A stretch of 64,000 nucleotides of DNA from an uncultured archaeon (GCA_902385225.1 CABMEU010000024.1:5606-69605), one strand, 5' to 3'; positions 36,973-64,000 are shown, counted from the first letter of the stretch. Notes: a model not told the origin generated them from the letters alone. Numbers and translations: made by a program.

Positions 36973-36993
36973 TTAAATTCACCAAGAAGAAAA

Positions 36994-37404: not shown

Positions 37405-37416
37405 ATTAACTTCAAT

Positions 37417-38589: not shown

Positions 38590-38613
38590 AATAACACCTT
38601 GTAAACACAAGCT

Positions 38614-39417: not shown

Positions 39418-39455
39418 TTTTTACACCAAAATACAAGCAACAATTGATGAATTAT

Positions 39456-40751: not shown

Positions 40752-40776
40752 CTTTAATCATCAAATAACTACGGGC

Positions 40777-41334
40777 TTACTTTCGCCCCCACCTGTCATA
40801 ATTCTTATTTGAAATTCCTAATAAATCCATCGCCTTGCCTGCTATAAAGTCCTCCAAATCGGCTATCTTCTTCGGTTTGCTGTAAAAGCCGGGGCTTAGG
40901 GGGAATATTATTGCTCCATAGATTGAGAGTTTCCAAAGGTTCTCAAGCGCTGGTCCGCTTAGGGGTGTTTCTCTAAACCCAACCACCAGCGGTTTTCGTG
41001 TTTTTAGCATATTATCAGCGCATCTTGTAATGAGAGAGGATGTATGAGCATGAAGTATCTCGGAGCAAGTCTTAATTGAGGCTGGGAGTATTATCATCCC
41101 GTCAACCAAAAATGAGCTTGAAGAAATGCTTGCGGCCAAATCTTTGTTTGAATAACTCTTTGTGGCGAGTTTTTTTAGCGCGGATATTTTTTTGCCAGTT
41201 TCAAGCTTCAATACTTCCTCCGCCCATTCGCTTACAACCAAATGCACCTCAACTTTCTGCGCTTTCAAAGCCTTAAGCAGAGCTAGAGCATAATTTGCGC
41301 CGGAAGCGCCTGTTACTGCAACAATTATTCTCAT
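40777..41334 (-). CDS. ubiX: flavin prenyltransferase UbiX
   Basis: MRIIVAVTGASGANYALALLKAL and the PAS..T pattern. Start trimmed to ATG 41334. Confidence 0.88.
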   Translation of the reverse strand: MRIIVAVTGASGANYALALLKALKAQKVEVHLVVSEWAEEVLKLETGKKISALKKLATKSYSNKDLAASISSSSFLVDGMIILPASIKTCSEILHAHTSSLITRCADNMLKTRKPLVVGFRETPLSGPALENLWKLSIYGAIIFPLSPGFYSKPKKIADLEDFIAGKAMDLLGISNKNYDRWGRK

Positions 41335-41380
41335 AAAAACCAACCACAAATTATTTGTCTGCAAAAAAACAGACCTGATT

Positions 41381-42322: not shown

Positions 42323-43144
42323 TTAACCAAACTCACGAATATATGTGCGCTCCGGAGGATCTACAAGTCTTTTTATCCTTTCATCAAGATTATCTCGTAG
42401 TGTCTCCCAAAATAAATTTAATCTCGCATCTTTTTCTTTTAACCCTAAAAAACTCCTTATGGGGCTCCAAACTGTTGCAGCATCAGTGTATACAAGTTTT
42501 ACCCCAATAGCTGCATAAACTGTAGGATCAGATCCATAGTCTACTCGCTGTATATTCTCTAAATCGTGAATAACTACCCCCAACTTGCCATCTTTCTTCT
42601 TATAAAAACCAAAGACCTCCATTCCACCTATTTCAAATCCTGCATTTGCGATTTTTGCAGTACAGCGCGCTAATTCTTTTATGAAATAAGCATCTTTTTT
42701 AATTGACATTCGTGAAAGCCTATTAGGATATCCATGCGGCAAAATCCCGAAAAAGGGCCTATTTAATGGTTGAATCTTTGAATGGTTGCCCTTTTTAAAA
42801 AATGCTTCTGTTGCAATATAATATTTAGTCGAAAACGCCCCCTCTTTAGACACTAACCCTTGATGAGGCACAGGCAAACCTAACTTCCTTAGTTCATGTG
42901 CAATTGATATTGATTCTTTTGCATCTCGCACCCCATGCTTGTTAATGGGTCTTAAAAAAACTGTTCTTGGTTTAACCCCAGTTTCTTTTTTCCAATAAAC
43001 TTTTCCAACTCTATAATGCGTAAATTTTTTTGTGAGGCCTTCTGGCGAGTAAATCGAAAAAGACCGTGTTATTCCAGGAAATATGCGTCTCCCAACTTTT
43101 ACATGCGAAACATCTGTTTCAGTGAGAACTCTTTTTTGCTTCAT
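42323..43144 (-). CDS. hypothetical 273-aa protein between DUF35 and mvk, with weak RIO/Kdo-kinase-like features
   Basis: The AHELRKLGLPVP...YYIATEAFF and GKLGVVIHDLENI segments recall a small-kinase fold, but the HxD catalytic loop is not evident. The N-terminus is basic. Confidence 0.55.
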   Translation of the reverse strand: MKQKRVLTETDVSHVKVGRRIFPGITRSFSIYSPEGLTKKFTHYRVGKVYWKKETGVKPRTVFLRPINKHGVRDAKESISIAHELRKLGLPVPHQGLVSKEGAFSTKYYIATEAFFKKGNHSKIQPLNRPFFGILPHGYPNRLSRMSIKKDAYFIKELARCTAKIANAGFEIGGMEVFGFYKKKDGKLGVVIHDLENIQRVDYGSDPTVYAAIGVKLVYTDAATVWSPIRSFLGLKEKDARLNLFWETLRDNLDERIKRLVDPPERTYIREFG

Positions 43145-45030: not shown

Positions 45031-45777
45031 TTATCTTTTTTTCAATTCCAGCCAATACTGTATCTGCTTAATCATCTTCGCATTATCTTCTGGGTTTGCA
45101 AGATGAGGAACCATTATCTCTATAATTGAACCATCCTTCATAACCAATCGAATTTTCTTCCCGCCTGCTGCATCAATCAATTCCTTTTTCAAAACTTGTT
45201 CAAATTCAATTTTTTGTTCCGCTCCTGTTGCTTGATTATAAATCTTAAATTCCGCGCCATATCTTACAAATGAAACCGAGTGGCCAGCCATTTCACCTTC
45301 AATATACTCCGGTCCAGCTGTTGCCAGCAAGTCGCTGATTTTCATCCTGTGTCTTCCAAATCCCAATACTTGTTTTCTATTTGTGAGAATCAATTCTCCT
45401 TTCGCATTAACATAAACAAATTTTTTTCCGGTTGATTCCACTTGTCTCTTAAACTCAGGAAATCTTTGCAGTTCAGCGGCAAATGCGTGCCCTATTCCTT
45501 TTGTCGCCCCTCGTGTTGCATCCCTGCCTATTCTAATTTTTTTACCACCAAACTTAATTTCAACTCCTTTCCAATCTTTTAAGATCCTCATTCCTGTTGC
45601 GCCCACTGCAAAATCGGAAATTGTTCTTGAATTTACACTTCCTTTTAATTCCCTAAACCTGTGCTTGTTTGCCTCGTGCGGTGCTTTCCACATTAACCCT
45701 CTCATTTTTGCTAGGTGCCCTGCAAGTTTGGGTGTGACAAATTTGTCAGTTGGGTGTATAACTTTCACTCGGCCCAT
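45031..45777 (-). CDS. hypothetical 248-aa protein inserted between HMG-CoA synthase and thiolase
   Basis: Intact ORF. ATG 45777 is preceded by AGTGAT, which overlaps the HMGS stop. The stop abuts the thiolase ORF. No recognised domain. Confidence 0.58.
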   Translation of the reverse strand: MGRVKVIHPTDKFVTPKLAGHLAKMRGLMWKAPHEANKHRFRELKGSVNSRTISDFAVGATGMRILKDWKGVEIKFGGKKIRIGRDATRGATKGIGHAFAAELQRFPEFKRQVESTGKKFVYVNAKGELILTNRKQVLGFGRHRMKISDLLATAGPEYIEGEMAGHSVSFVRYGAEFKIYNQATGAEQKIEFEQVLKKELIDAAGGKKIRLVMKDGSIIEIMVPHLANPEDNAKMIKQIQYWLELKKR

Positions 45778-45785
45778 AAGTATCA

Positions 45786-46826
45786 CTATTGGTGTATTCC
45801 CTCCATGTGTTTTAGGTACTGCGGGTATGTAATGTATTCTTTTCTTGCGATGTAGTCATTTACCTTGCGTGCTTTTTTCTGCGCTTCGGTAATTTTTTTT
45901 GTTGCAGTAAAAATAAATGCGTCGCTTCCTGAACCGGAACCATAGGAGGTTACCAAAATTTTGTCTCCTGGTTTTGCGACATCAAGCACGCTTGCGAGTC
46001 CCAATATTGAGGAGCCTGAATAGGTGTTTCCGATTTTTGTGACAACTAGCCCCGCTTCGATTTGTTCTTTTGTCGCGCCGAATTGTTTTGCCATTCTTAG
46101 GGGGAACTTTCCATTCGGCATGTGGAATACAACGTATTTGAAGTCCGTGATTTTTGCTCCGCTTTTTTTAAGAATCATATCAGTTGCGCTCGAAACGTGT
46201 TTGAAGTATGCGGGTTCTCCTGTGAATCTTCCTGCGTGTGATGGGTAGGCTTGCATTGCTCTTCTCCAAAAATCAGGAGTATCGCTAGTGAATGAGCAAG
46301 TATAGTCAAGTGTTGCGACGCTTTCAGAATTTGGTCCAACAATAAATGCCGCTCCGCCTGCTGCCGCGCTGTACTCAAGCGCGTTTCCCGGTTCGGCTTG
46401 GGAAGTGTCCGCACCGATGCTTAATCCGTATTTTATCATTCCTGAGTCAACGAGCCCGGCGTTTATTTGTATTGTCGCGCTCCCTGCTTTGCATGCGAAT
46501 TCTGTATCAACCGCCATGTATGCGTTTCCAATATCAAGCGCTTCTCCAACAATTGATGCGGTTGGTTTTACTGCGTAGGGGTGGGATTCGCTTCCAACAT
46601 AAACCGAGCCGATTTGTTTTCTATCGATTCCGGCTCTAGCGAGCGCGTCGCGCGCGGCGTGAACTGAAATAGTGGCTGTGTCCTCATCTTTTCCAGGAAC
46701 ACTTTTTTCAGTTAAACCAAGTCCGGCTTTTATCGCGGCCGCGTCTGCGTTCTGTACTTCCGCAATTGTTTCGGCTTTTATCCTGTACTTAGGAATGTAT
46801 GAGCCCCATCCGACTATTCCTGCCAT
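45786..46826 (-). CDS. hydroxymethylglutaryl-CoA synthase
   Basis: MAGIVGWGSYIPKYRI and TEFACKAG (catalytic Cys region). ATG 46826 is preceded by GGTG. The ORF-track start 46874 has no SD. Confidence 0.9.
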   Translation of the reverse strand: MAGIVGWGSYIPKYRIKAETIAEVQNADAAAIKAGLGLTEKSVPGKDEDTATISVHAARDALARAGIDRKQIGSVYVGSESHPYAVKPTASIVGEALDIGNAYMAVDTEFACKAGSATIQINAGLVDSGMIKYGLSIGADTSQAEPGNALEYSAAAGGAAFIVGPNSESVATLDYTCSFTSDTPDFWRRAMQAYPSHAGRFTGEPAYFKHVSSATDMILKKSGAKITDFKYVVFHMPNGKFPLRMAKQFGATKEQIEAGLVVTKIGNTYSGSSILGLASVLDVAKPGDKILVTSYGSGSGSDAFIFTATKKITEAQKKARKVNDYIARKEYITYPQYLKHMEGIHQ

Positions 46827-52123: not shown

Positions 52124-53182
52124 TTAATTCTCCATCCATTCCTTTAATTTTCCAAGAATTATCGGTTTCTCGGAGTGGAGCTGCGCGATGTTTTTGCATC
52201 CGACAAGGAAGGATGCTATCTCCATTTCTTTCTTCAAATCAGTTAATTGTTTTTTTATTCCGGCGCTTCCGTTTTTTGTCTGTGCTTTTAGCATTGGCAT
52301 CGCGCTTCCAACCATATCCGCTCCAAGCACAAGCGCTTTTACGGCATCAATTCCGTTTCTTATTCCTCCGGAGGCGATTACTTTTTTTCCTGTGCCGTGT
52401 ATTGCGCTCTTTACCTGCATTAATGAAACGGCAGTAGGCAAACCAAAATCCCTGAAAATTTCTCCAAATCCGGTTTTGTGTCTTAGTGAATCAACAGCTG
52501 TCCAGCTTGTTCCGCCCGCTCCCTGTGTGTCAATCGCTTTTATTTTTGTATCCTTTAGTGCAAATGCAACTTCATATGATACTCCGTGTCCTACTTCTTT
52601 CACATAAACTGGAACGCTGATTTTGTCCGCGAACTCGGCGATTTTTTCAATTAGCCCCGAGAAATCCGCGTCCCCTTCGGGTTGAACCGCTTCCTGCGCT
52701 GCATTGAGATGTATTGCGAGCGCATCGGCTTCAATTGCGCCAAGCGCGCCGTTTAAGTCGTCAGGAGAGAATTGTTTTAATTGCGCGGCGCCAATATTTC
52801 CGGCAAGGAAAATATCCGGAGCCACATCTCTTACAAAATAAGTTTCTGTTAATGATGGGTGCTGCAGCATTGCTCTCATGCTTCCAAGACCCATTCCTAT
52901 TCCGATTGCCTGACACGCCTCTGCGATATCAGTATTAACTTTCTTTGATACTGCCGCTCCGCCGGTAATTGCGGAAACAATAAATGGAAATGAAAACTTT
53001 TTTCCTAAAAACTCAGTGCTCAAATCAACATCATTCATGCTTATTTGTGGTAGGCACTTATAATTTAGTTCAACGCACTCAAGCAGAGTGGTTTTTTCGT
53101 GGAACGAAACGTCCTTTGTGGCGGAGAGCCTCAAGTGATCGGCTTTTCGTTTTTCGATTTGCGACACCATAAATAACACCAT
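52124..53182 (-). CDS. fni: isopentenyl-diphosphate delta-isomerase, type 2 (FMN-dependent)
   Basis: KRKADHLRL, SAITGG and ASGGIRNGID TIM-barrel FMN pattern. Its ATG overlaps the upstream stop (TAATG). Confidence 0.9.
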   Translation of the reverse strand: MVLFMVSQIEKRKADHLRLSATKDVSFHEKTTLLECVELNYKCLPQISMNDVDLSTEFLGKKFSFPFIVSAITGGAAVSKKVNTDIAEACQAIGIGMGLGSMRAMLQHPSLTETYFVRDVAPDIFLAGNIGAAQLKQFSPDDLNGALGAIEADALAIHLNAAQEAVQPEGDADFSGLIEKIAEFADKISVPVYVKEVGHGVSYEVAFALKDTKIKAIDTQGAGGTSWTAVDSLRHKTGFGEIFRDFGLPTAVSLMQVKSAIHGTGKKVIASGGIRNGIDAVKALVLGADMVGSAMPMLKAQTKNGSAGIKKQLTDLKKEMEIASFLVGCKNIAQLHSEKPIILGKLKEWMEN

Positions 53183-53898
53183 TAATTTTTCAATAAATTG
53201 TGTTTCCTTCTAAACGCCAGTTCCGCTTCAGTGAACACCGCTTTTTCCTTCCCAAGAATATTTGCTATTTCCGCTTCTGCCTCAACTTTAACTAGCGTCA
53301 TTACAGAAAAATCAACTCCCACATAAAGCGGGTTTTTTCTCCCAGTTGGGTGAAATACAAGCAGGGTTTTTACTGCATCACCCATATTTGCGTCGCTTTT
53401 TGCAAACTCTTTCTCGCTTCTCCCATACTTTGCGAGTTCTGCCTGCGCCCGCCCCACAAACTGCTGCAACCCAACTACACTTTCCCCCGCTTTTTTGTCC
53501 CTTTTGATTCTCTCATTTAAATTCTTAATTAAATACCTGCAAAGTTTTTTTGCGGCTCTTTCTTCGCAGACTCCTTTATTGCCTCTTGCAATAGCTGCGG
53601 CCTTCGCTATTCTAAATAAATCAAGTGTGTGGTGCATCTGCGCCCAGGGCATTCCAATTTCTTTGAGAAGTTCTCTTCTCTTTGCCATTACAGCCTCATT
53701 TCTCTCCGCAAACACCGCAAGCGGTTTTTCTAATTTGGGTATTATCCCCAGTGAAGGATTGTAAGAAAGAGGGTATTTTCTTCCAAGAAGTACTTCCCGT
53801 CTTGCATTTCTCTGTGAGTATCTTGAGGGCAGTGAAATATTCTTTACAGCCTGCCTTACAGTCCGGCCAGCTAATTTTAGTCCTGAGATTTTTTGCAT
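53182..53898 (-). CDS. hypothetical 238-aa helical protein inserted between GGPP synthase and IDI2
   Basis: Intact ORF. ATG 53898 is preceded by AGTGA, directly after the GGPPS stop. Its stop overlaps the IDI2 start. No recognised domain. Confidence 0.58.
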   Translation of the reverse strand: MQKISGLKLAGRTVRQAVKNISLPSRYSQRNARREVLLGRKYPLSYNPSLGIIPKLEKPLAVFAERNEAVMAKRRELLKEIGMPWAQMHHTLDLFRIAKAAAIARGNKGVCEERAAKKLCRYLIKNLNERIKRDKKAGESVVGLQQFVGRAQAELAKYGRSEKEFAKSDANMGDAVKTLLVFHPTGRKNPLYVGVDFSVMTLVKVEAEAEIANILGKEKAVFTEAELAFRRKHNLLKN

Positions 53899-53908
53899 AA
53901 ATTTCACT

Positions 53909-56653: not shown

Positions 56654-57967
56654 ATGGTTTTCGGCGGGTTAAAGGGATTTTTCTCAAAAAAAGAGGAATC
56701 TCCTTTCATTAAGATTGAAATAGAGCAAGTGCCTATGCTCATTGAGAAGGAATTCTTGCTCAAAAAGAGCGCGCTTGAGGATTTCTCTGCGAAAAAAATA
56801 GCGGAAGCAAAGTATGTTCATGGCAAAAGTTCCGCGCTTCTTGAGTTAATTTCAAATCAGGAGCTTGAGGGAAAGGCAAATGAAAGATTAAACAAAGCCG
56901 CTCTCACTTCAAAGAAACAGCTTGAGAATCAGCTGCGAAAACTGCTTGAAAAAATTAATCCGGAGAATAGGGGAACTACGCTTGATGATGCCAGAAAGTA
57001 TGCGGGGGAAGCAAACGCGCTTCTTGTCAATGAAATTGTGGGATTAAGGAAAAACATTGCATACACTAGTATTTACTTTAAGGATGAAATGAAGGCGCTT
57101 GGGGAGAATTTGCAGGAACTGCTTAATGATTTTAGCGCGATGAATAAGGAATTCGCGCAAGCCTCGGAGTTATTTGAATTTGAAAAAACAAAAGCTCTTG
57201 TCGGAGCGGTGATAAAAAAGAAGAAGAATATTGAGGAAAAAGAGGAAGCGCTGCAAAAAGCTGAGAGCGAGATTGGGGCTGTTGAAAGAAAATCCTCTGA
57301 ACAAAAAAACAGGCTTGTTGAGAAGCAATCGGGGAGCGAATTTGTAAAAGCGAGAGAGCTTGATGAGCAAATGAATAAATTAATGGGGGAGAAGCAGGAG
57401 CTCAAAACCGAAATCAGCACTCTGTTAATTAATATTGACAGGCCTATGCAGAGATTTCGGCAGTTAGTTGACTCGGGGAGATGGAAACTGCCTAAAGAAG
57501 AAAAGGATATGCTTGAGCAGTTCATTACTAACCCAATCCTTGCGCTGAAAAAAGACCCCCGCGCGGATATATTCAAAAAAGTTTTAGGCGAAGTTGTCGC
57601 CGCAATACAAGAAGGGGAAATTGAGCTAAAGGACAGGGAGAAAGAGAAGCGCCTTGAGGCACTGCAGGAAATAATTAACTTTGATTTCTTCGGAAAAGTA
57701 TTTTGGAAAATGAACGAGATACAAAAAAAACAGGACGAGCTGAACAAAATAATTGCCGAGAATAACGCTAAGAAGGATATTGCGAAAGAAGAGGACGCGC
57801 TAAAAGAACTCGGAAGAGTCGGAACTGAATTATCTGAGAAAAAAGAGTTCGCGAAAAAAGACCTTGAGAATGCAAGGCGCGAAATTGCGAATGAATTAGC
57901 TCAAATCAAAAAGTTTGCTGAAAAGGTTTTAGGAAAAACAATTATTTTTGAAGAAGAAGCGTTTTAG
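56654..57967 (+). CDS. hypothetical 437-aa coiled-coil protein
   Basis: Long Glu/Lys/Leu-rich heptad-like sequence throughout. No enzymatic motif seen. Confidence 0.55.
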   Translation: MVFGGLKGFFSKKEESPFIKIEIEQVPMLIEKEFLLKKSALEDFSAKKIAEAKYVHGKSSALLELISNQELEGKANERLNKAALTSKKQLENQLRKLLEKINPENRGTTLDDARKYAGEANALLVNEIVGLRKNIAYTSIYFKDEMKALGENLQELLNDFSAMNKEFAQASELFEFEKTKALVGAVIKKKKNIEEKEEALQKAESEIGAVERKSSEQKNRLVEKQSGSEFVKARELDEQMNKLMGEKQELKTEISTLLINIDRPMQRFRQLVDSGRWKLPKEEKDMLEQFITNPILALKKDPRADIFKKVLGEVVAAIQEGEIELKDREKEKRLEALQEIINFDFFGKVFWKMNEIQKKQDELNKIIAENNAKKDIAKEEDALKELGRVGTELSEKKEFAKKDLENARREIANELAQIKKFAEKVLGKTIIFEEEAF

Positions 57968-58546: not shown

Positions 58547-59131
58547 ATGAATTCGGAGAACGAAATTAAGCTCTGCAAGTACTTGCTTGAAAAATACGCG
58601 GATATAATTAACGAGCGCGAGAAGCGCACTATTGGGGAAATTAAGGGGCTTGTTGATGGGAATGACCTTTCTATCCAGTCCTTTGTTGAGGATTTTAAGG
58701 GGGCGGCGTACTCTTTCCAAAATGATTATGAGAAAGCGCTCCGCACTGCATTTGATTTTGTTAAAAAAGAGATTAATTTTGTTGATGCTGAGCTTAATGT
58801 GAACTATTGGCTCGCCCCAAGAGAAATACTTGAACTAAAAGTCGCTGATGATGAGGACCTCGCGGTATTCCTCTGCGCCGTAATGAAAGCGCTTGGGGAT
58901 GATAAAGCGGAAGTGATAATTGCGGAGCTTGATAATTTAAGGACACACGCATTTGTGCTTACTGAGCTTGGAGAAAAAGCGCTTCTGCTTGACCCCGCGC
59001 AGGAACACAGCTTTGAGGATTACCTTGATACAAAAGTTGAGATACTTAAAAAATATGCTTTTCAGAAACAAAAAATCAAGAGATTCCTTTACAGGTTCAA
59101 TTCCGAGAAATACGAGCAGTTTTTGGAATAA
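58547..59131 (+). CDS. hypothetical protein with a possible transglutaminase-like fold
   Basis: YWLAPREIL...LAVFLCAVMKALG...THAFVL...LLDP loosely follows the Cys/His/Asp core order of transglutaminase-like proteins. The match is weak. Confidence 0.4.
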   Translation: MNSENEIKLCKYLLEKYADIINEREKRTIGEIKGLVDGNDLSIQSFVEDFKGAAYSFQNDYEKALRTAFDFVKKEINFVDAELNVNYWLAPREILELKVADDEDLAVFLCAVMKALGDDKAEVIIAELDNLRTHAFVLTELGEKALLLDPAQEHSFEDYLDTKVEILKKYAFQKQKIKRFLYRFNSEKYEQFLE

Positions 59132-59217
59132 AAACCGCTTCCCTTTGGAAGCCTTTGGCAGGTTTTTTAAATCATACTAATCAGGAATACCTTTGCTAAA
59201 CTGGTGAAGAAATGGCA

Positions 59218-59243
59218 TCGAGAATTGCAGTGGCAATTCGAGA
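59218..59243. promoter_or_regulatory. imperfect palindrome upstream of the ferredoxin-GGR pair
   Basis: tcgaGAATTGC-agtg-GCAATTCgaga has 7-bp perfect arms. It contains the GGCAATT core also found in the 46-bp modules. An AT-rich GATAAATAAAAATA follows. Confidence 0.35.
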
Positions 59244-59264
59244 TAAATAAAAATAGTGATTTTT

Positions 59265-59450
59265 ATGGTAGCAAAAAATAATTCAAATAAGTGCGCTTAT
59301 TGCGGTGCGTGCGTAGGCATCTGCCCTGTTGCGGCTATTGTGCTAAAGGATACAAGAATTTTTATTGATGAGAAGAAATGTATTTCCTGCGGGTCTTGCG
59401 TAAAAATCTGCCCTGTTGGAGCGATGAGCCTTGAAATTAAAAAGAAGTAA
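59265..59450 (+). CDS. 2x[4Fe-4S] ferredoxin
   Basis: CAYCGACVGICP and CISCGSCVKICP. ATG 59265 is preceded by GTGATTTTT. Confidence 0.85.
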   Translation: MVAKNNSNKCAYCGACVGICPVAAIVLKDTRIFIDEKKCISCGSCVKICPVGAMSLEIKKK

Positions 59451-59475
59451 CCAAAAAATGCTTGAAGTGATTTTG

Positions 59476-60696
59476 ATGACTGGAAAAGAAATTGTTTATG
59501 ATGTAATAATTGCTGGTGCGGGTCCTGCCGGGCTTGCAGCTGGAATTGAGCTTGCTAAAGGAAAAGCGAATGTGCTCATACTTGATAGAAAACAGGAAAT
59601 CGGCTGCCCAAAGAGATGCGCTGAAGGGTTAAGCAACTCCTGGTTTAACATAATGAAATTAACTCCTAACCCAGAGTGGGCTGTTCAAAAAATTAAGGGT
59701 GCTGTTCTTTGGGCGCCTAATGGGAAGAGCGTAAAAATGAAGGATAAAAAAGAACTTGGGTATGTGCTTGAGAGAAAAATGTTTGAAAAACATCTCGCAA
59801 TTGAAGCTGCTAAACTTGGCGCAAAAATTCTTCTAAAGCACCAAATCATTGAAGCGAAAAGAGAGAACGGGATTGTTACATTAAAAGTTGAGGTTCATGA
59901 CCATGTTGAGGAATTCAAAGCAAAAATGGTTATTGCCTGCGACGGAATTGATTCGCTTGTAGCGCGAATGCTTGGGCTTAATACTGCAAATAATCTAAAG
60001 GACACTGATTCGGGTTACCAATACGAAATGACAAACATTTCAGGGTACGATGAGGATTGTCTTCACATGTATTTTGGTAATGAAGTTGCACCAAGAGGAT
60101 ATATTTGGATTTTCCCAAAAAGAGATGGTACTGCAAATGTTGGAATCGGAATAGGGGCATATGTTTCAGCTGAAACCAAAATTAACGCTAAAGGGTATCT
60201 TGACAGATGGATTGAGAAGCAGCCCGGGCTCAAAGACGGTTCAATTATAGAAGTTAATGCGGGAGGAATTCCTGTTGGCGGATTCCTTGAGAAAATGGAT
60301 GCTGATAATTTGCTCGTAGCTGGAGACGCGGGGCACATGGTTGATCCTATCCACGGCGGGGGAATTGGTATCGCAATGGAAGGCGGAAGACTCGCAGCGC
60401 AAGTTGCGCTCAAAGCAGTTAAAGCGAATGATTATACTTCAAAGACGCTTGGAACTTACACTAAAGAATGGTTCACACTTAGAGGAAACAAACTCAAAAC
60501 AAGATTAAAATCAAGGCACTTGCTTGAACACTTAAGCGATGATGATTTCAATTATTTAGCTGAAAGCATCACGATGGACGAAGCTTTGAAGATTGGAAAC
60601 GGCTCATTGTCAAAGTCAGAGAAAGTAATGCTATTCACAATAAAACTAATCAAGAGACCAAAACTCATTGCGATAATGAAGAAGTTCTTTGTTTAA
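59476..60696 (+). CDS. geranylgeranyl reductase (digeranylgeranylglycerophospholipid reductase family)
   Basis: YDVIIAGAGPAGLAAG FAD fold, RCAEGL, and the GDAGHMVDPIHGGGI motif. ATG 59476 is preceded by GTGATTTTG. Confidence 0.92.
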   Translation: MTGKEIVYDVIIAGAGPAGLAAGIELAKGKANVLILDRKQEIGCPKRCAEGLSNSWFNIMKLTPNPEWAVQKIKGAVLWAPNGKSVKMKDKKELGYVLERKMFEKHLAIEAAKLGAKILLKHQIIEAKRENGIVTLKVEVHDHVEEFKAKMVIACDGIDSLVARMLGLNTANNLKDTDSGYQYEMTNISGYDEDCLHMYFGNEVAPRGYIWIFPKRDGTANVGIGIGAYVSAETKINAKGYLDRWIEKQPGLKDGSIIEVNAGGIPVGGFLEKMDADNLLVAGDAGHMVDPIHGGGIGIAMEGGRLAAQVALKAVKANDYTSKTLGTYTKEWFTLRGNKLKTRLKSRHLLEHLSDDDFNYLAESITMDEALKIGNGSLSKSEKVMLFTIKLIKRPKLIAIMKKFFV

Positions 60697-60710
60697 GATT
60701 TCTAAAAAGC

Positions 60711-61424
60711 TTACTGAACTCTTCGTGCAATCACAACATCATGGTGCCAGATTTTTTTATAATCTCCTTGGCTGTAATACCACGGCCGGCATTCAACTTC
60801 AAAGCGCATCCCTTCTGTTTCAATAACTGATTTTCCGTGCGGACCAAATGTTTCATAATTTATGTCCGTGACGAGCGTTCCTCCGACTTTTAGAACTGGA
60901 AGAATTTGCCTTATATATTCTGGTGCTCTTTCATAAAGGTGAAGAATTCCCAAATTGGAATATAGAATATCTACACTGCCTTTCTTGAAATATCTGCGAA
61001 ACAAACTGTGTTTAGAAAATATATATCTTGCCTTATCATCAGAAAGCCATTCTTGGTAAGAAACATCTGAAAAGCCATAAGCTTTTACGCTTGGAAATTT
61101 TTTAGTAATACTTCCTAATGCAACTCCTCTCGCACAGCCAAAATCAACGACTACTGGTCGCCCTCCGCCCGCAACTTTTAAGGAAATCTCCCGTCCTAAT
61201 TTGAACCCCAAATTTTTCTGAACATCCGCAAAAGTGGTTGATTCTGATGGCCAGGGTGTTTTTGAGTCTGGAAGAAGCCTTGATGGTTTTACTTCCCTTC
61301 TGCGCCCCCAAGCCTCAACTTCACCGAATTTCAAAAACCCAGCCCTTGTTCGCCTGCCTTTCTCGCCAATAGTTCTTCCTTTCCCAAAAACAAAATGATT
61401 GCGGGACGAATTTGATGCTTGCAT
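60711..61424 (-). CDS. class I SAM-dependent methyltransferase-like protein with a basic N-terminal extension (paralog 1)
   Basis: VVVDFGCARGVAL (motif I), YGFS, DILYSNLG and LKVGGTLV. Homologous to 62582-63304. Confidence 0.7.
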   Translation of the reverse strand: MQASNSSRNHFVFGKGRTIGEKGRRTRAGFLKFGEVEAWGRRREVKPSRLLPDSKTPWPSESTTFADVQKNLGFKLGREISLKVAGGGRPVVVDFGCARGVALGSITKKFPSVKAYGFSDVSYQEWLSDDKARYIFSKHSLFRRYFKKGSVDILYSNLGILHLYERAPEYIRQILPVLKVGGTLVTDINYETFGPHGKSVIETEGMRFEVECRPWYYSQGDYKKIWHHDVVIARRVQ

Positions 61425-61475
61425 ATATAATGTTTGCTACATCAAAATTTAATTGTTTCCAAACACTACTTCTTC

Positions 61476-62585
61476 ATGGAAAACGAGAAAGCAATTCAGC
61501 TAAGCAACCTTACGCTTAAGCACTTGGTAGCGGAGCTTAAGTTCCTTGAGAATGGGTTTGTGAATAATGTGCAAACACTCGAGAACGGCTGGATGAAAAT
61601 GAAGGTGCATACTAAGCAGGGGGATAAGAATCTCGTGCTTACGCCTAACGCGTTGTTCATATCCAACTACTCGCTCCAAGCAAAATCAAGCCCTGGCGGG
61701 TTCTCCGCACTGCTCAAAAAATATTTAGACAATCAGAGAATTATTTCGCTCGCCCAGCGCTCCGCTGACAGAATTGTGGTTTTTGAATTTCCAAGTGTGT
61801 TTATGATACTTGAGCTCTTCGCAAAAGGAAATGTAATTCTTTGTGATAAAGAAATGAAAATAATTAAAGCAATGCGAAGGGAAGAGTGGAAGGATAGAAA
61901 ACTTGAGCAGAACGAGGAGTACAAATACCCAAGTTCAAAGGGAATTAATCCTGTTGAGGAAACCCAGAAAGAGTTTGACAAGAAACTCGCTGAAAACAAA
62001 AAAACTTTCTTTGGTGCGTGCGTGGATATACTCAATACTTCCCCAGCGATACTTGAATATGTTTTTGATGAGCTAAAACTTGATAAGAAAAAGAATGCGG
62101 CTGAAGCAACCGCTGCAGAAGCAAAGAAGCTCCTAAAGAAAATGCAGGAGATTTACAATAGCCCCGCGAAAAAAGCTTTCTTAATCGAGGGTGCGCTTTA
62201 TACTACTGAAATAGGAAAACCAAAGGATAAGGAATTTGAAAGTGTTAGCTCCGCACTTAACGCTCTGCTGCTTAATGAGGAAGTAAAGGAAAATGCGATG
62301 GCGCTTACTAAGGAAGCCAAAGTGGAAAAGGAGAGCAAATACGAAAAAGAGAAGCGCGCAAAGGAAAACCAAATGAAGGGACTTGAAGAACAAGCTAAGC
62401 AGGCACAGGAAAAGGGAGAACAAATTTATCTCAAGTACAATGAACTCAAGGAACTTGTTGAAGCGGTGAAGAAGGGAAAAGCGAAGGGGTTAACTGAAAA
62501 AGAAATCGTGGAGAAGATTAACTCAAAGAAGAAATTAATTAAGGAACTTGACTTTAAGAAAAATAAGCTTGTTGTTATGGATTAA
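61476..62585 (+). CDS. NFACT-N (FbpA/Rqc2 N-terminal) domain protein with a coiled coil, lacking the NFACT-R/DUF814 part
   Basis: LKHLVAELKFLENGFV, DRIVVFEF and ELFAKGNVILCD are the typical NFACT-N blocks, followed by a Lys/Glu coiled coil. It is only about 369 aa. Confidence 0.72.
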   Translation: MENEKAIQLSNLTLKHLVAELKFLENGFVNNVQTLENGWMKMKVHTKQGDKNLVLTPNALFISNYSLQAKSSPGGFSALLKKYLDNQRIISLAQRSADRIVVFEFPSVFMILELFAKGNVILCDKEMKIIKAMRREEWKDRKLEQNEEYKYPSSKGINPVEETQKEFDKKLAENKKTFFGACVDILNTSPAILEYVFDELKLDKKKNAAEATAAEAKKLLKKMQEIYNSPAKKAFLIEGALYTTEIGKPKDKEFESVSSALNALLLNEEVKENAMALTKEAKVEKESKYEKEKRAKENQMKGLEEQAKQAQEKGEQIYLKYNELKELVEAVKKGKAKGLTEKEIVEKINSKKKLIKELDFKKNKLVVMD

Positions 62586-63304
62586 TTCAAAACTTTGATG
62601 TGGACTGAATTGTTAATTAGTGTTACTTTACATTTTCGCCCATTAATGAGCGCGTGCCCCCAGTATCTTGTTGTCGTTACTCCGTCTTTTTTTAAATAAG
62701 CTGCTTGCTTTCTAATACCCCTCGGGATAAGTTCATAAAATCTAAACATTGATGACGGCAAAATATTTGCAACCATCTCACCGCCTGTCCTAAGAACTGG
62801 GATTAGGGAAAGCACATAATCGGGCTTTGTGTGCCACAACCCAAAGTTTGAGTAAATTAAATCAGCTGAGTTTTTCTTAAAATAACGCTTAAAATCTTTT
62901 TCCTGGGCGTGAATCAGTCGAACATTAGTTTGTTTTGTATCCCACGAAGGATACGCTTGATTGCTAAACCCATAAAACTTTGCCTGCTTGCAGGAAGAAG
63001 CAAGTTCTTCTAAAGCAACTCCTGCACCACAACCCCAATCAACTACAACCGGCGTTCTGCCTTTTTTCCCCACACCACTTATTAGCGATTTTATCTTGTT
63101 TTTTAGAGGAAAATGCAATTCCCCTTCTATTTTTTCAACTGATGAATATTCCATCCACCCGCGTCGGCGTACTTTTTGAACTTGTCTGAGTCGCCCTCTC
63201 TTTTTAACTAAAATTTCAATCCGCTCATCAGGCCATAATCGCGTCAAATTTCGTCTAAGCCGTGTTGGTCCAGCATATAATTTTTTTCCACCATAAACGG
63301 GCAT
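62582..63304 (-). CDS. class I SAM-dependent methyltransferase-like protein with a basic N-terminal extension (paralog 2)
   Basis: VVVDWGCGAGVAL, YGFS, FKRYFKKNSADLIYSNFG and LRTGGEMV. ATG 63304 is preceded by GTGGT. Its 3' end overlaps the NFACT gene end by 4 nt. Confidence 0.7.
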   Translation of the reverse strand: MPVYGGKKLYAGPTRLRRNLTRLWPDERIEILVKKRGRLRQVQKVRRRGWMEYSSVEKIEGELHFPLKNKIKSLISGVGKKGRTPVVVDWGCGAGVALEELASSCKQAKFYGFSNQAYPSWDTKQTNVRLIHAQEKDFKRYFKKNSADLIYSNFGLWHTKPDYVLSLIPVLRTGGEMVANILPSSMFRFYELIPRGIRKQAAYLKKDGVTTTRYWGHALINGRKCKVTLINNSVHIKVLN

Positions 63305-63458
63305 CAAACCACTAAGTATAATTAGACGTCGTCAGATATAAAATCAGCCGTTGGATAGAAAGAACCAAAAAACCCAAATAAACATAACCCAACTTCTTCA
63401 AGTAAGCACTCTTTTCTCAAGAAAAAATTATCGCCTTTCTTCAAGGCCTGTAACAACC

Positions 63459-63507
63459 AAAAAAATTAGTAATAGTGTGCTTGGGAGTCTAGTCCAAACT
63501 CAAGCAC
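63459..63507 (-). terminator. hairpin plus T7 tract downstream of the PRC-barrel gene
   Basis: GTGCTTGGG (63477-63485) pairs with CTCAAGCAC (63499-63507). On the minus strand the hairpin is followed by TATTACTAATTTTTTT (A-run 63459-63465 on the plus strand). Confidence 0.4.
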
Positions 63508-63533
63508 TCTCGTGCTTGGTCTGGTTTTAAACA

Positions 63534-63809
63534 TTAATCCTTTTTCTGAGCTTCTTCTAGGATTTCTCTCTCATCAACAATGAACACATCGCTCACTGCT
63601 GTTACTGAGGAGTATGGCACTTCAATTAATTTGTCCACTTTCCCTAGTTTTGATAGAAGTCTGGATGTTCTGTCTACTTCAACGACCAAGAACTCTATGT
63701 CCCCGCCAACTTCGGATACGATTATGTCAACCAATTTGCCAACTTCGTCTCCTCTGTTAGTGATTACTCTTTTGGATGCTAGCTGTCTAGCGATTGTGTA
63801 TTTGTACAT
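63534..63809 (-). CDS. PRC-barrel domain protein
   Basis: VITNRGDEVGKLVDIIVSEVGGDIEFLVVEV is the typical PRC-barrel pattern. 91 aa. Confidence 0.72.
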   Translation of the reverse strand: MYKYTIARQLASKRVITNRGDEVGKLVDIIVSEVGGDIEFLVVEVDRTSRLLSKLGKVDKLIEVPYSSVTAVSDVFIVDEREILEEAQKKD

Positions 63810-64000
63810 TTTTTGACACCTGTAAAAACTTTAACAGATAGAAAGTCTAACTTCTTTATAAACATTTCCCCTGGAAAAAGCGAACTAAAAGAGGTTATGT
63901 ATTCTTCATTCCGAAGTGCAAAAATGAACTGTTGTCCGAGAAAGGTTGTGAAAAGATGAAATCTGGCTTATGTAGAGATACATAAATAGTGGGTCATTTC

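What the first reader, a model, noticed from the sequence alone, without database searches (positions are those of the whole stretch)
60711..63304. Two paralogous methyltransferases flank a truncated NFACT gene and share N-terminal motifs with the operon-embedded orphans, suggesting a modular family
The two paralogs:
- ORFs 60711-61424 and 62582-63304 are clear paralogs. Shared blocks are PVVVD[FW]GC..GVAL, YGFS, F[KR]RYFKK.S.D[IL][LI]YSN[LF]G and PVL[KR].GG.
- Each has a basic N-terminal extension of about 90 aa, and they bracket the oppositely oriented NFACT-N gene.

Motifs the extensions share with the orphans inside the por, mevalonate and GGPPS-IDI2 operons:
- MEYSS[IV] occurs in 23381-23752 (KPMEYSSIGW) and in paralog 2 (GWMEYSSVEK). 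In each case it follows W.[DE].R about 25-28 residues upstream.
- G.V..W....VKP.R..L.P occurs in paralog 1 (FGEVEAWGRRREVKPSRLLP) and in 42323-43144 (VGKVYWKKETGVKPRTVFLRP).
- [AV]GRR[MI]...YSP[GE] occurs in 23381-23752 and 42323-43144.
- KLAG[RH] occurs in 45031-45777 and 53182-53898, with KLYAGPTR in paralog 2.

Hypothesis:
- A common N-terminal adaptor module is fused to different effector domains: methyltransferase, kinase-like and unknown.
- These are encoded next to or inside the operons of central metabolic enzymes.
- They could be dedicated modifiers or regulators, or a lineage-specific selfish gene family that targets intergenic slots.

I could not compute alignment statistics. The motifs are short and the sequences are compositionally biased.
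Basis: inference. Interest (0 to 1): 0.75.

Follow-up and report, generated by a model that had tools for sequence, protein, structure and literature searches.

The report
Two methyltransferase paralogs, no shared module
The two genes are real, anciently diverged members of an uncharacterised methyltransferase family of Iainarchaeia (DPANN archaea) with its own conserved N-terminal signature, but the N-terminal motifs they seem to share with the operon-embedded orphan genes are chance matches between unrelated, basic, fast-evolving accessory genes.

Summary
P1 (60711-61424, -) and P2 (62582-63304, -) are true paralogs (BLASTP E=9e-28). Both are class I SAM-dependent methyltransferases (AF2 pLDDT 87; Foldseek finds only generic methyltransferases).

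They belong to an unnamed family of about 377 cluster representatives, seen in Iainarchaeia MAGs. Its signature is an N-terminal MP[VI][YF]GKGR, a basic linker, W..E.S.L..VE, then the core VVDWGCG/YGFS/RYFK. P1 and P2 come from different subfamilies, so they are not a tandem duplication.

The "truncated" NFACT gene is the normal ~368-aa short form of this lineage.

The claimed shared N-terminal module fails every test: BLAST, shuffled Smith-Waterman, k-mer controls, family HMMs and profile-profile comparison. In 1 Mb of related DNA the N-terminal motif occurs only in front of this methyltransferase core.

What the six proteins do share is composition (basic N-termini, pI about 10) and genomic behaviour. 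They occupy variable slots in a conserved gene backbone. In relatives these slots are empty, filled by other genes, or hold a decayed copy. The orphans form separate families that are under purifying selection but evolve fast. Two of these families are tied to a single slot.

Substrate and mechanism of the methyltransferases remain inferred. RNA is my leading guess.

The parts
60711..61424 (-). P1: 237-aa class I SAM-dependent methyltransferase of the 'MPVYGKGR' family. It belongs to the subfamily with a short leader before [FV]FGKGR and the C-terminal motif WYYSQGDYKKIWHHDVVIARR.
   Evidence: ORF. Paralogy to P2. Family HMM E=1.7e-57. Weak Pfam Methyltransf_11 match of 20.6 bits, just under the cut-off. 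Orthologue at the same GGR|NFACT position in L009 (43% identity). A frameshifted copy at that position in L097.
61155..61424 (-). P1 N-terminal family module (residues 1-90): FVFGKGR at 61374-61391, a basic linker, W58..E.S motif and pre-Rossmann helices. It ends at motif I, PVVVDFGC (61134-61157).
   Evidence: An N-terminal HMM built without the window sequences aligns P1 residues 12-90, E=2.3e-11. Family alignment.
61425..61475 (.). 51-nt divergent spacer between the P1 start and the NFACT start. It is A+T-rich (atataa / tttaat), a plausible shared archaeal promoter region.
   Evidence: Sequence. In L007 the whole GGR-NFACT spacer is an unrelated 55 nt with no P1. Promoter function is inferred.
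61476..62585 (+). Short-form NFACT protein (369 aa: NFACT-N plus middle/coiled-coil, no NFACT-R). This is a conserved backbone gene, not a truncation.
   Evidence: Pfam NFACT_N E=1.8e-34. RqcH_arch model positions 2-371 of 645, 172 bits against a cut-off of 400. About 100 homologue clusters of 355-390 aa. Conserved C-terminus.
62582..63304 (-). P2: 240-aa class I SAM-dependent methyltransferase of the same family (canonical MPVYG start). Its stop codon overlaps the NFACT stop codon (convergent genes).
   Evidence: Pfam Methyltransf_11 26.3 bits against a cut-off of 21.2. AF2 pLDDT 87, pTM 0.87. Foldseek finds class I methyltransferases only. An identical protein in NCBI is labelled 'Uncharacterised protein [uncultured archaeon]'.
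63050..63304 (-). P2 N-terminal family module (residues 1-85): MPVYGG at 63287-63304, a basic linker, then W50-MEYSSVEKIE, which is the family motif W..E.S.L..VE. Motif I, PVVVDWGC, lies at 63029-63052.
   Evidence: The N-terminal HMM built without the window sequences aligns residues 2-78, E=3e-5. AF2 gives a beta-hairpin at 28-45 and helices at 56-79.
63305..63365 (-). About 60 nt upstream of P2 that exists only where P2 is present. It contains ttttatat and taattata, which are TATA-like. I read it as P2's own promoter arriving with the gene.
   Evidence: Sequence. The alignment with the empty slot of L097 shows homology only from 63366 onward. Promoter function is inferred.
63366..63533 (-). 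Conserved spacer downstream of the PRC-barrel gene. It holds a terminator-like hairpin at 63501-63518 (caagcac-gaga-gtgcttg) followed by a T-run.
   Evidence: The alignment with L097 and L007 keeps the stem through compensatory changes (CAAGCGC...GCGCTTG in L097). Sequence.
59431..60696 (+). Geranylgeranyl reductase, the backbone gene that forms the left edge of the P1 slot.
   Evidence: Pfam GGR_cat E=1.4e-25. The synteny GGR-NFACT-PRC holds in L007, L009, L091-L094 and L097.
63534..63809 (-). PRC-barrel protein, the backbone gene that forms the right edge of the P2 slot.
   Evidence: Pfam PRC E=2.2e-10. Synteny in the calls listed above.
45031..45777 (-). Orphan in the HMGCS|thiolase slot. 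It is NOT related to P1/P2. It belongs to a slot-specific, fast-evolving family.
   Evidence: The cluster of 9 has all eight relatives in HMGCS|thiolase. Identity to L011 and L036 is 34-38% by tblastn, or 44% to L036 in a global alignment, while the flanking genes are 92-97% identical. dN/dS is 0.17-0.26. hhalign to the methyltransferase N-module gives probability 0.1%.
53182..53898 (-). Orphan in the GGPPS|IDI2 slot. It is NOT related to P1/P2. It belongs to a second slot-specific family.
   Evidence: The cluster of 7 has all six relatives in GGPPS|IDI2. Identity to L011 and L036 is 56-61% while the flanks are 87-94% identical. dN/dS is 0.13-0.24. BLASTP to the L009 slot gene gives E=6e-7.
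42323..43144 (-). Orphan in the DUF35|MK slot. It is NOT related to P1/P2. It is a sporadic family, possibly a Bud32-like minimal kinase fold.
   Evidence: Absent from L011, which has a 77-nt spacer there. Three homologues at 61-64% identity; the two looked up lie in other genomic contexts. AF2 pLDDT 47. Foldseek top hits are Bud32/PRPK at E about 2e-3.
23381..23752 (-). Orphan in the POR alpha|beta slot (123 aa, pI 11.3). It is NOT related to P1/P2 and no homologue was found in the fetched loci.
   Evidence: Singleton in clustering. Family HMMs give no hit. In relatives the same slot is empty (L028) or holds unrelated genes (L013, L038).

Best explanation
Shown:
- P1 and P2 are two anciently diverged members of a lineage-restricted family of small (about 200-250 aa) class I SAM-dependent methyltransferases found in Iainarchaeia (Diapherotrites, DPANN).
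- The family has a fixed architecture. First comes an almost invariant extreme N-terminus, MP[VI][YF]GKGR. Then a variable, strongly basic linker of 30-50 aa. Then the helix motif W..E.S.L..VE..L.F. Then a Rossmann core with VVDWGCGxG, YGFS, RYFK..S.DLIYSH.GL.H and PKLK.GG. The N-terminal piece belongs to this family only.
- The two genes sit in two variable intergenic slots on either side of a conserved short-form NFACT gene in the backbone GGR-NFACT-PRC.
- P1 is an old resident of the GGR|NFACT slot. It is intact in L009, decayed in L097 and deleted in L007.
- P2 is a cassette (gene plus about 60 nt upstream) seen only in this genome among the relatives sampled.
- The resemblance to the four operon-embedded orphans is compositional (basic N-termini, pI about 10) plus chance k-mers. 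Two orphans belong to unrelated families, each tied to one junction. They are genuinely coding (dN/dS 0.13-0.26) and evolve about 5-10 times faster than their neighbours.

Inferred:
- The enzymes bind SAM through the canonical motif I.
- They use the basic N-terminal module to hold a polyanionic substrate, most likely rRNA or tRNA.
- The conserved MPVYGKGR tip packs back on the catalytic domain as part of the substrate site.
- They are dispensable accessory modifiers, not partners of NFACT or of the metabolic operons.
For: Paralogy and fold:
- Paralogy.
- AF2 model with pLDDT 87 and pTM 0.87. Foldseek PDB hits are all class I methyltransferases, led by MnmM, rRNA methylase 3mti, Kmr, TrmB and PMT, with E down to 3e-7.
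- Pfam Methyltransf_11/25. PDB sequence profile hits to PMTs.

The family:
- An exhaustive HMMER search gives 377 representatives at E<1e-3 and 185 at E<1e-10. Alignment.
- 81 of 123 full-length members start MP[VILT][YF].
- Family members occur in Ca. Iainarchaeum MAGs.

The N-module is family-specific:
- The HMM built without the window sequences hits P1 (E=2e-11) and P2 (E=3e-5) but no orphan.
- hhalign probabilities are 0.7% or less.
- The motif is always followed by the methyltransferase core in 1.02 Mb of DNA.

Old paralogs:
- P2 is rank 34 among P1's hits, and P1 is rank 27 among P2's hits.

Slot dynamics:
- L007 has no P1 and an unrelated 248-aa gene after NFACT.
- L009 has the P1 orthologue and an unrelated gene after NFACT.
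- L091 and L093 have both slots empty. L092 and L094 have membrane proteins before NFACT.
- L097 has a P1 pseudogene with one stop codon and two frameshifts, although its NFACT is 94% identical.
- The P2 cassette boundary is shown.

Orphan families and rates.

Basic N-termini of slot genes: net charge of the first 40 aa is +7.1 against +0.9 for backbone genes (p=5e-13); median pI is 10.2 against 8.5.
Against: - No experimental or contextual evidence fixes the substrate. The best sequence hits in the PDB are small-molecule N-methyltransferases (PMT), and structural matches are weak (TM about 0.4-0.55).
- The usual acidic residue at the end of strand beta2 appears to be replaced (YGFS). This is unusual for SAM binding.
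- I could not inspect model coordinates. Packing of the N-terminal tip rests only on a DSSP beta-bridge at residues 3-4 and a pLDDT of about 70.
- The taxonomic range is inferred from only five named or unnamed archaeal MAG loci. The core domain also occurs inside giant Omnitrophota proteins.
- P1-type genes do recur next to NFACT in three lineages, so a functional link is not excluded.
Confidence: 0.75

Rival explanations
1. A common N-terminal adaptor module is shared by P1, P2 and the four orphans and is fused to different effector domains (methyltransferase, kinase-like, unknown).
For: - The short motifs are literally present.
- All six proteins have basic N-termini and pI of about 10 or higher.
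- Relatives carry other N-extended enzymes in the same slots: a 441-473 aa methyltransferase in DUF35|MK and a HAD-family gene at 38614-39417.
Against: - Pairwise BLAST, shuffled Smith-Waterman, k-mer tests with controls, family HMMs and profile-profile hhalign are all negative.
- The motifs are not conserved in the orphans' own orthologues (alignments).
- The MPVYGKGR motif is found only in front of the methyltransferase core in 1.02 Mb of DNA.
Confidence: 0.03
2. P1 and P2 are functional partners of the short NFACT protein. For example, they could be RNA methyltransferases acting on tRNA or 50S substrates in ribosome quality control, which would explain why they flank it.
For: - P1-type genes sit in the GGR|NFACT slot in the window, in L009/L010 and in L097/L098.
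- P1 and NFACT share a 51-nt divergent spacer.
- The N-tail is basic, and the top fold matches include tRNA and rRNA methyltransferases.
- From established knowledge: NFACT/RqcH binds tRNA and the large ribosomal subunit.
Against: - The slot is empty or filled by membrane proteins in L007, L091, L092, L093 and L094.
- The L097 copy is a pseudogene although NFACT is intact and 94% identical.
- P2's slot holds unrelated genes or nothing in all seven relatives.
- Other family members lie in unrelated contexts.
Confidence: 0.1
3. The methyltransferase family, and perhaps the other slot genes, are selfish single-gene mobile cassettes. They insert, with their own promoter, into intergenic junctions of conserved operons by a mechanism that needs no transposase.
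For: - Family members occupy at least five different junctions in related genomes, including GGPPS|IDI2 and HMGR|HMGCS.
- P2 plus about 60 nt of upstream DNA is a discrete insert relative to L097.
- Homologues of O42323 at about 62% identity lie in different contexts, and the slot is empty in a relative that is 95% identical.
- Insertions preserve the neighbours' stop codons and ribosome-binding sites.
Against: - No target-site duplications, terminal repeats, transposase, integrase or nuclease were found, and there are no tRNA genes in the window.
- There are no viral relatives.
- The O45031 and O53182 families are strictly slot-specific and co-diverge with their flanks (dS 0.94 against 0.82 for L022/L037). 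This indicates vertical descent with loss.
- The history of P1 (intact, decayed, deleted) fits ordinary turnover of accessory genes.
Confidence: 0.12

Closest known systems
Class I SAM-dependent methyltransferases of the Pfam Methyltransf_11/25 type (BioC, Tam, UbiE, phosphoethanolamine N-methyltransferases)
   Same: - Motif I is VVDxGCGxG.
- The motif after strand beta4 is S.D.IYS..L.H.
- The fold is Rossmann-like.
   Different: - The scores lie at or just above the Pfam gathering cut-off and far below every NCBIfam equivalog cut-off.
- The family has its own N-terminal module (MPVYGKGR, basic linker, W..E.S.L..VE), which no library model contains.
- It has a beta-rich C-terminal subdomain.
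- The residue at the end of strand beta2 is Ser/Gly (YGFS) instead of the usual Asp/Glu.
MnmM/YtqB tRNA methyltransferase, with rRNA and tRNA methyltransferases such as 3mti, Kmr and TrmB (the best structural matches)
   Same: A compact class I fold of similar size. These enzymes act on RNA, which fits the basic tail.
   Different: - Foldseek E is only about 3e-7, TM 0.4-0.55, and sequence identity 12-18%.
- There is no shared specific motif.
- Small-molecule methyltransferases score nearly as well.
RqcH/NEMF (NFACT family), for the gene between the paralogs
   Same: It has NFACT-N and the middle/coiled-coil region.
   Different: It lacks NFACT-R (PF05670) and scores 172 bits against a cut-off of 400 for RqcH_arch. 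The ~368-aa form is the rule across about 100 Iainarchaeia clusters. Full-length forms of 595-628 aa appear only as distant hits.
Free-standing accessory genes inserted between conserved genes (phage 'morons' and free-standing homing-endonuclease genes). This is an analogy from my own knowledge, not a tested relationship.
   Same: They are single genes, sometimes with their own promoter. They occupy intergenic junctions of an otherwise syntenic backbone and show presence/absence polymorphism among close relatives.
   Different: No nuclease or other mobility domain was found, and there is no viral context. Two of the families are fixed to one junction and descend vertically.
Bud32/PRPK minimal protein kinases, for orphan 42323-43144 only
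   Same: The top nine Foldseek hits are Bud32/PRPK chains, and the protein has an IHDLEN loop that resembles a kinase catalytic loop.
   Different: The model has pLDDT 47. The best E is only 2e-3. There is no Pfam, NCBIfam or PDB sequence hit.

Membership tests
Class I SAM-dependent methyltransferase (Methyltransf_11/25) | Glycine-rich motif I (hh[DE]hGxGxG) at the end of strand beta1 | tested here: met
   P1 has VVDFGCARG and P2 has VVDWGCGAG. D, G and C are invariant or nearly invariant in 72 family members.
Class I SAM-dependent methyltransferase (Methyltransf_11/25) | Score at or above the Pfam gathering threshold | tested here: inconclusive
   P2 scores 26.3 bits for PF08241 against a cut-off of 21.2, so it passes. 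P1 scores 20.6, so it fails. Both are below the cut-off of 27 for PF13649.
Class I SAM-dependent methyltransferase (Methyltransf_11/25) | Rossmann-like alpha/beta fold with the class I strand order | tested here: met
   The AF2 model has pLDDT 87 with alternating beta/alpha elements at residues 86-180. There are 447 PDB matches at E<=1e-3, and every one of the 50 listed is a SAM-dependent transferase of this fold, nearly all methyltransferases.
Class I SAM-dependent methyltransferase (Methyltransf_11/25) | Acidic residue at the end of strand beta2 that binds the SAM ribose | tested here: not met
   By alignment to the Methyltransf_11 consensus, the position is occupied by the YGFS motif (Ser) in both paralogs and in the family consensus. 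Some true methyltransferases lack this residue, so this lowers confidence but does not exclude membership.
Class I SAM-dependent methyltransferase (Methyltransf_11/25) | SAM binding and methyl transfer | not testable with these tools
   This needs biochemistry.
'MPVYGKGR' methyltransferase family (unnamed; defined here) | Extreme N-terminal MP[VI][YF]GKGR, or a short leader followed by [FV]FGKGR | tested here: met
   P2 has MPVYGGKK and P1 has ...HFVFGKGR. 81 of 123 full-length members start MP[VILT][YF].
'MPVYGKGR' methyltransferase family (unnamed; defined here) | N-module W..E.S.L..VE..L.F, recognised by a profile not trained on the query | tested here: met
   P1 E=2.3e-11 and P2 E=3.2e-5 against the six-frame window.
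'MPVYGKGR' methyltransferase family (unnamed; defined here) | Core signature YGFS / RYFK..S.D.IYS / P.L..GG | tested here: met
   Full-family HMM E=1.7e-57 for P1 and 3.8e-53 for P2; both sequences were in the training set.
   Searches are all negative.
   All nine motif occurrences in 1.02 Mb of DNA precede the methyltransferase core.
RqcH / full-length NFACT (gene 61476-62585) | NFACT-N domain | tested here: met
   PF05833 E=1.8e-34.
RqcH / full-length NFACT (gene 61476-62585) | NFACT-R (DUF814, PF05670) RNA-binding domain, and a score at or above the equivalog cut-off | tested here: not met
   There is no PF05670 hit. RqcH_arch scores 172 bits against a cut-off of 400, covering model positions 2-371 of 645. 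The same holds for about 100 homologue clusters.
Transposable element or integrative cassette (for P1, P2 and the orphans) | Terminal inverted repeats or target-site duplication at the insert borders | tested here: not met
   The repeat scan of 59000-64000 finds only short chance repeats. Comparisons of filled and empty sites show clean replacement of the spacer.
Transposable element or integrative cassette (for P1, P2 and the orphans) | An encoded transposase, integrase or homing nuclease | tested here: not met
   The slot genes have no such Pfam, NCBIfam, PADLOC or PHROG hit.
Protein-kinase-like fold (orphan 42323-43144) | A confident kinase-like structure or profile match | tested here: inconclusive
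   AF2 pLDDT is 47. Foldseek top hits are Bud32/PRPK but with E of 2e-3 or weaker. There are no sequence-profile hits.

The most novel reading that the evidence does not exclude
Iainarchaeia genomes may carry a population of fast-evolving accessory genes with strongly basic N-termini. This population would include a multi-copy MPVYGKGR-methyltransferase family. The genes would be gained and lost as single-gene cassettes, sometimes with their own promoter, at intergenic junctions inside otherwise highly conserved central-metabolism operons. The mechanism would leave no repeats and need no recognisable transposase. The shared basic N-termini would then reflect a common cellular role, such as RNA or ribosome association or a targeting signal, and not common descent.
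Probability: 0.12. Interest if true: 0.65.

Novelty: new variant of a known kind. Interest (0 to 1): 0.3.

Why it matters
- For annotation: the two genes should be called class I SAM-dependent methyltransferases of an unnamed family. The NFACT gene should not be flagged as a pseudogene. The orphans should not be merged into one family.
- For biology: the family's invariant N-terminal MPVYGKGR tip plus basic linker is an untested structural element on a common enzyme fold. It is restricted, as far as sampled, to a poorly known DPANN lineage.
- For genome evolution: the comparison shows that tightly packed, conserved operons (POR, mevalonate pathway, GGPPS-IDI2) in these small genomes tolerate variable genes at their junctions. 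These genes evolve about 5-10 times faster than their neighbours. This is relevant to how reduced symbiont-like genomes gain and lose genes.

Tried and rejected
- Word-indexed homologue search with P2 found only P2 itself. The exhaustive search was needed to find the family.
- The look-up of encoding contigs for P2 returned nothing on record.
A 13-sequence subset worked.
- A scan of viral contigs for the family found no relatives. The BFVD fold search gave generic methyltransferases only.
- PADLOC and PHROGs gave only generic methyltransferase similarity: mad2 at 1e-6 and a tRNA methyltransferase phrog at 1e-4.
- The repeat search around the paralogs gave only short chance repeats and the motif-I DNA match.
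- The window has no tRNA genes and no Rfam families.
- The HAD fusion lead: P0106 carries HAD plus this methyltransferase domain, and window gene 38614-39417 is HAD-like. Direct comparison showed no specific similarity, so I dropped it.
The O42323 model was poor, so the orphans' folds remain open.
- The PDB profile search for the O42323 family found nothing.
- The literature search found no description of this methyltransferase family or of short NFACT forms in DPANN.
- I considered that the orphans might be non-coding ORF artefacts. I rejected this because of conserved orthologues and dN/dS of 0.13-0.26.
- I considered that P1 and P2 might be a tandem duplication. I rejected this because each has more than 25 closer relatives elsewhere.

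Full report
**1. What is at the coordinates**

The window carries the following genes:
- P1 is an ORF at 60711-61424 on the - strand (237 aa).
- P2 is an ORF at 62582-63307 on the - strand. Its biologically sensible start is the ATG at 63304, giving MPVYGG... and 240 aa.
- Between them, on the + strand, lies an NFACT-N gene. The ORF runs from 61434, but comparison with relatives puts the start at the ATG at 61476.
- Geranylgeranyl reductase lies to the left (59431-60696) and a PRC-barrel gene to the right (63534-63809).

P1 and P2 are clearly homologous. BLASTP gives E=9e-28 with 35% identity over 158 aa. An identical copy of P2 exists in NCBI as "Uncharacterised protein [uncultured archaeon]" on a 71-kb contig.

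**2. What P1 and P2 are**

- Pfam gives weak Methyltransf_11/25 matches. P2 is above the PF08241 cut-off and P1 is just below it.
- NCBIfam gives only far-sub-threshold BioC/Tam-type matches.
- A PDB sequence profile finds phosphoethanolamine N-methyltransferases at E=4e-5.

An exhaustive HMMER search with the P1+P2 profile against 1.84 billion cluster representatives returns only 377 proteins at E<1e-3 and 185 at E<1e-10. The profile therefore defines a specific family and does not pick up methyltransferases in general. Most members are 200-250 aa.

The 72-sequence alignment gives the architecture:
- an extreme N-terminal MP[VI][YF]GKGR;
- a variable basic linker with a recurrent GKR;
- W..E.S.L..VE..L.F;
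- then VVDWGCGxG, YGFS...Y..W, VKFIH....D..RYFK..S.DLIYSH.GL.H and PKLK.GG.

Of 123 full-length representatives, 81 start exactly MP[VILT][YF]. Several others have this motif a few residues inside an over-extended ORF.

With this alignment AlphaFold2 gives a confident model of P2 (pLDDT 87, pTM 0.87). Its elements, in order, are:
- a short beta-bridge at residues 3-4;
- a helix and a beta-hairpin in the basic region (pLDDT 57-79);
- two helices at 56-79;
- a Rossmann core at 86-180;
- a beta-rich C-terminal subdomain.

Foldseek against the PDB returns only class I SAM-dependent enzymes of this fold. MnmM, rRNA methylase 3mti, Kmr, TrmB and PMT lead the list, but with E no better than 3e-7 and TM of 0.4-0.55. 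The fold is secure and the substrate is not.

Source databases label family members only generically, as "SAM-dependent methyltransferase", UbiE or Tam. Genome hits are Ca. Iainarchaeum or unnamed archaeal MAGs. The core domain alone also occurs, sometimes repeated, inside giant proteins. One of these is from Omnitrophota.

**3. The claimed N-terminal motifs shared with the orphans**

The orphans are real ORFs inside conserved operons:
- 23381-23752 lies between POR alpha and POR beta.
- 45031-45786 lies between HMG-CoA synthase and thiolase.
- 42323-43144 lies between the DUF35 OB-fold protein and mevalonate kinase.
- 53182-53907 lies between GGPPS and IDI2.

None has a Pfam or NCBIfam hit. 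All have pI of 10 or higher.

Every test of similarity to P1/P2, or among the orphans, is negative:
- BLAST finds nothing beyond P1-P2.
- Exact shared 5-mers: 2 observed against 0.72 expected, p=0.17.
- The shared 4-mer excess is matched by 6.7% of control sets of unrelated backbone proteins.
- Smith-Waterman on the first 95 residues with 2000 shuffles: P1-P2 has p=0.0015. The best of the other 14 pairs has p=0.0185.
- Family HMMs (full, N-terminal part, C-terminal part) against the six-frame window hit only P1 and P2.
- An N-terminal HMM built without the window sequences recovers P1 (E=2e-11) and P2 (E=3e-5). It scores the orphans at 0.5 bits or less.
- hhalign between the methyltransferase N-module and the orphan families gives probabilities of 0.7% or less.

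The individual motifs also fail on inspection:
- KLAG[RH] is KLIGL or RLTGL in the closest orthologues of 53182. It is not conserved in the 45031 family (alignments).
- MEYSS in P2 is the family's W..E.S.L motif. The copy in 23381 lacks the flanking family residues.
- G.V..W....VKP is conserved within the 42323 family. In P1 it lies in the variable linker and is absent from the L009 orthologue.

In about 1.02 Mb of fetched DNA, all nine occurrences of the MPVYGKGR-type motif are followed by the methyltransferase core. The module is therefore not shuffled onto other domains.

In the first 40 residues, slot genes have a net charge of +7.1 against +0.9 for backbone genes (p=5e-13). Their median pI is 10.2 against 8.5.

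**4. The NFACT gene**

It contains NFACT-N and the middle region only, covering RqcH_arch model positions 2-371 of 645. This is not a truncation in this genome:
- A homologue search returns about 100 clusters, nearly all 355-390 aa. They are labelled Diapherotrites or Ca. Iainarchaeum where named.
- The C-terminus ...DFKKNKL[VI]V is conserved whether or not a gene follows.

**5. Comparative genomics of the two slots**

The backbone DHH - 440-aa protein - CEP76-like - GGR - NFACT - PRC is conserved.

The GGR|NFACT slot holds:
- P1 in the window;
- a P1 orthologue (43% identity) in L009/L010, where NFACT is 71% identical;
- a P1 pseudogene with one stop codon and two frameshifts in L097/L098, where NFACT is 94% identical;
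- nothing in L007 (NFACT 96% identical), L091 or L093;
- unrelated membrane proteins in L092 and L094.

The NFACT|PRC slot holds:
- P2 only in the window;
- unrelated genes of 248 and 254 aa in L007 and L009;
- nothing in L091-L094 and L097.

Alignment of the filled and empty sites shows two things. The spacer downstream of PRC (63366-63533, with a hairpin kept by compensatory changes) is conserved. P2 plus about 60 nt of TATA-containing upstream DNA is the inserted unit, and it abuts the NFACT stop codon. At the P1 site the whole spacer differs, and there are no duplications or inverted repeats.

P1 and P2 are not each other's nearest relatives; their ranks are 34 and 27. They are old paralogs from different subfamilies that happen to occupy neighbouring slots. 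Other family members lie in unrelated contexts. I therefore consider a specific functional link to NFACT unlikely, at about 0.1.

**6. The orphans in relatives**

Eighty metagenomic loci around HMG-CoA synthase show conserved operon order with variable junctions.

Occupancy of the junctions:
- HMGCS|thiolase is empty, with gaps of 12-63 nt, in seven close relatives (including L013, L018, L020, L031, L035) and mostly small (25-275 nt) in the more distant lineages. It holds 500-1070 nt in others.
- DUF35|MK is 46-82 nt in L011, L014, L018 and L028, but 1.4-2.5 kb in L013, L019, L032 and L036.
- GGPPS|IDI2 ranges from 48 nt to 1.8 kb.

Clustering of 122 junction ORFs shows:
- The 45031 family has nine members (the window gene and eight relatives), and all relatives lie in HMGCS|thiolase.
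- The 53182 family has seven members (the window gene and six relatives), and all relatives lie in GGPPS|IDI2.
- The P1/P2 methyltransferase family lies in several different junctions: GGPPS|IDI2 in L032 and HMGR|HMGCS in L003/L023.
- A second methyltransferase family of 441-473 aa, with a long basic N-extension, lies in DUF35|MK in four relatives (Pfam hits; hhalign to the P-family core gives probability 84%).

The slot genes diverge far faster than their neighbours. Against L011, the flanking genes are 93-96% identical, but the 45031 homologue is 34% and the 53182 homologue is 56% identical. Nei-Gojobori estimates give dN/dS of 0.13-0.26 for slot genes against 0.03-0.06 for HMGCS. For the closest pair, dS is similar (0.94 against 0.82). 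These are therefore real genes under relaxed purifying selection, inherited with their flanks.

Orphan 42323 behaves differently:
- It is absent from the 95%-identical relative L011, which has a 77-nt spacer. The boundaries are clean and keep MK's ribosome-binding site.
- It has three homologues at 61-64% identity in Ca. Iainarchaeum MAGs; the two looked up lie in other contexts.
- Its AF2 model is poor (pLDDT 47). The top Foldseek hits are consistently Bud32/PRPK at E of about 2e-3. This is weak support for "kinase-like".

**7. Mechanism**

Shown:
- P1 and P2 have the class I methyltransferase fold, with a canonical motif I and a family-specific, conserved N-module.
- They are dispensable accessory genes in variable slots.

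Inferred:
- The strongly basic N-module binds a polyanionic substrate.
- tRNA and rRNA methyltransferases rank among the best structural matches.
- RNA methylation is therefore my leading guess, at roughly 0.35 given that they are active enzymes. A small-molecule or lipid head-group substrate (PMT-like sequence matches) or a protein substrate are the alternatives.
- The near-invariant MPVYGKGR tip has a higher pLDDT (about 70) than the linker and forms a beta-bridge in the model. This suggests that it packs against the catalytic domain. I could not inspect the coordinates.

No link to defence systems, phages or known mobile elements was found.

**8. Verdict**

The paralogy, the blocks and the positions are real. 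The motif sharing is at chance level. "Truncated" is wrong.
The genes are methyltransferases, and the slot-filling behaviour is real. The common N-terminal adaptor module and the single modular family are not supported.
- The object is an undescribed variant of a very common enzyme kind, so overall interest is modest. The more interesting by-products are the variable, fast-evolving junction genes inside conserved operons and the items listed under noticed in passing.

Noticed in passing
window 36169-41364 compared with L036 16221-18919 (also L013 and L038): Close relatives differ in the lower mevalonate pathway at the same locus. The window and L011 carry UbiX, a UbiD-like gene, AcnX large and small subunits and IPK, which is the 'archaeal' route. 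L036 has an HMGCS 92% identical to the window's, but after mevalonate kinase it carries diphosphomevalonate decarboxylase (TIGR01240, 295 bits) and phosphomevalonate kinase (TIGR01220, 227 bits) instead.
   Followed up: partly
window 61476-62585; P0151-P0249: A short NFACT protein of about 368 aa (NFACT-N plus coiled coil, no NFACT-R) is the rule across about 100 Iainarchaeia/Diapherotrites clusters. I did not determine whether a separate NFACT-R protein exists or how such a form could work in ribosome quality control.
   Followed up: partly
L097 2094-2874 (and L098): The P1 orthologue next to a NFACT that is 94% identical is a pseudogene, with one in-frame stop codon and two frameshifts. Six contigs from different samples carry the same 156-aa remnant.
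   Followed up: yes
L013 12679-14076, L019 13915-15336, L032 14023-15357, L036 13863-15188: A second lineage-specific methyltransferase family of 441-473 aa has a basic N-terminal extension of about 160-190 aa. It always lies in the DUF35|MK junction, where the window has orphan 42323-43144 instead.
   Followed up: partly
window 24916-25329: A further orphan (137 aa, pI 10.4, no Pfam hit) lies between the POR delta (Fer4) and POR alpha genes. The POR operon therefore has two inserted unknown genes.
   Followed up: no
window 38614-39417: A HAD-family hydrolase lies between the UbiD-like gene and AcnX. It is absent from the 95%-identical relative L011, where UbiD is followed by AcnX after about 25 nt. 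It is another variable junction gene.
   Followed up: partly
L097 8513-8705 (gene runs off the locus): The GGPPS (polyprenyl synthase) gene of this relative is called as an 818-aa product with Hint/intein-splicing and LAGLIDADG hits. This points to an intein-containing GGPPS.
   Followed up: no
window 56654-57967; L009 3648-4976; L091-L094: A conserved 435-442 aa protein with balanced charge (KR 0.19, DE 0.19; probably coiled-coil) and no Pfam hit is a fixed backbone gene next to the DHH/DHHA1 protein in all relatives.
   Followed up: no
P0039 (5272 aa), P0120 (6099 aa), P0061 (3007 aa, Omnitrophota), P0147, P0050, P0048: Giant proteins contain one to three copies of this methyltransferase core, scoring up to 108 bits against the P1+P2 profile. 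The four checked have few or no other recognisable domains, and P0061 also has HTH domains.
   Followed up: partly
window 63501-63518: A terminator-like hairpin downstream of the PRC-barrel gene is kept in L097 through compensatory base changes.
   Followed up: partly
window 4460-11302: A 2280-aa ORF on the - strand (pI 5.1). I did not examine it.
   Followed up: no
L094 8345-9238: A phage-integrase-family gene lies about 1.2 kb beyond the PRC gene in one relative. This suggests that integrative elements also use this neighbourhood.
   Followed up: no
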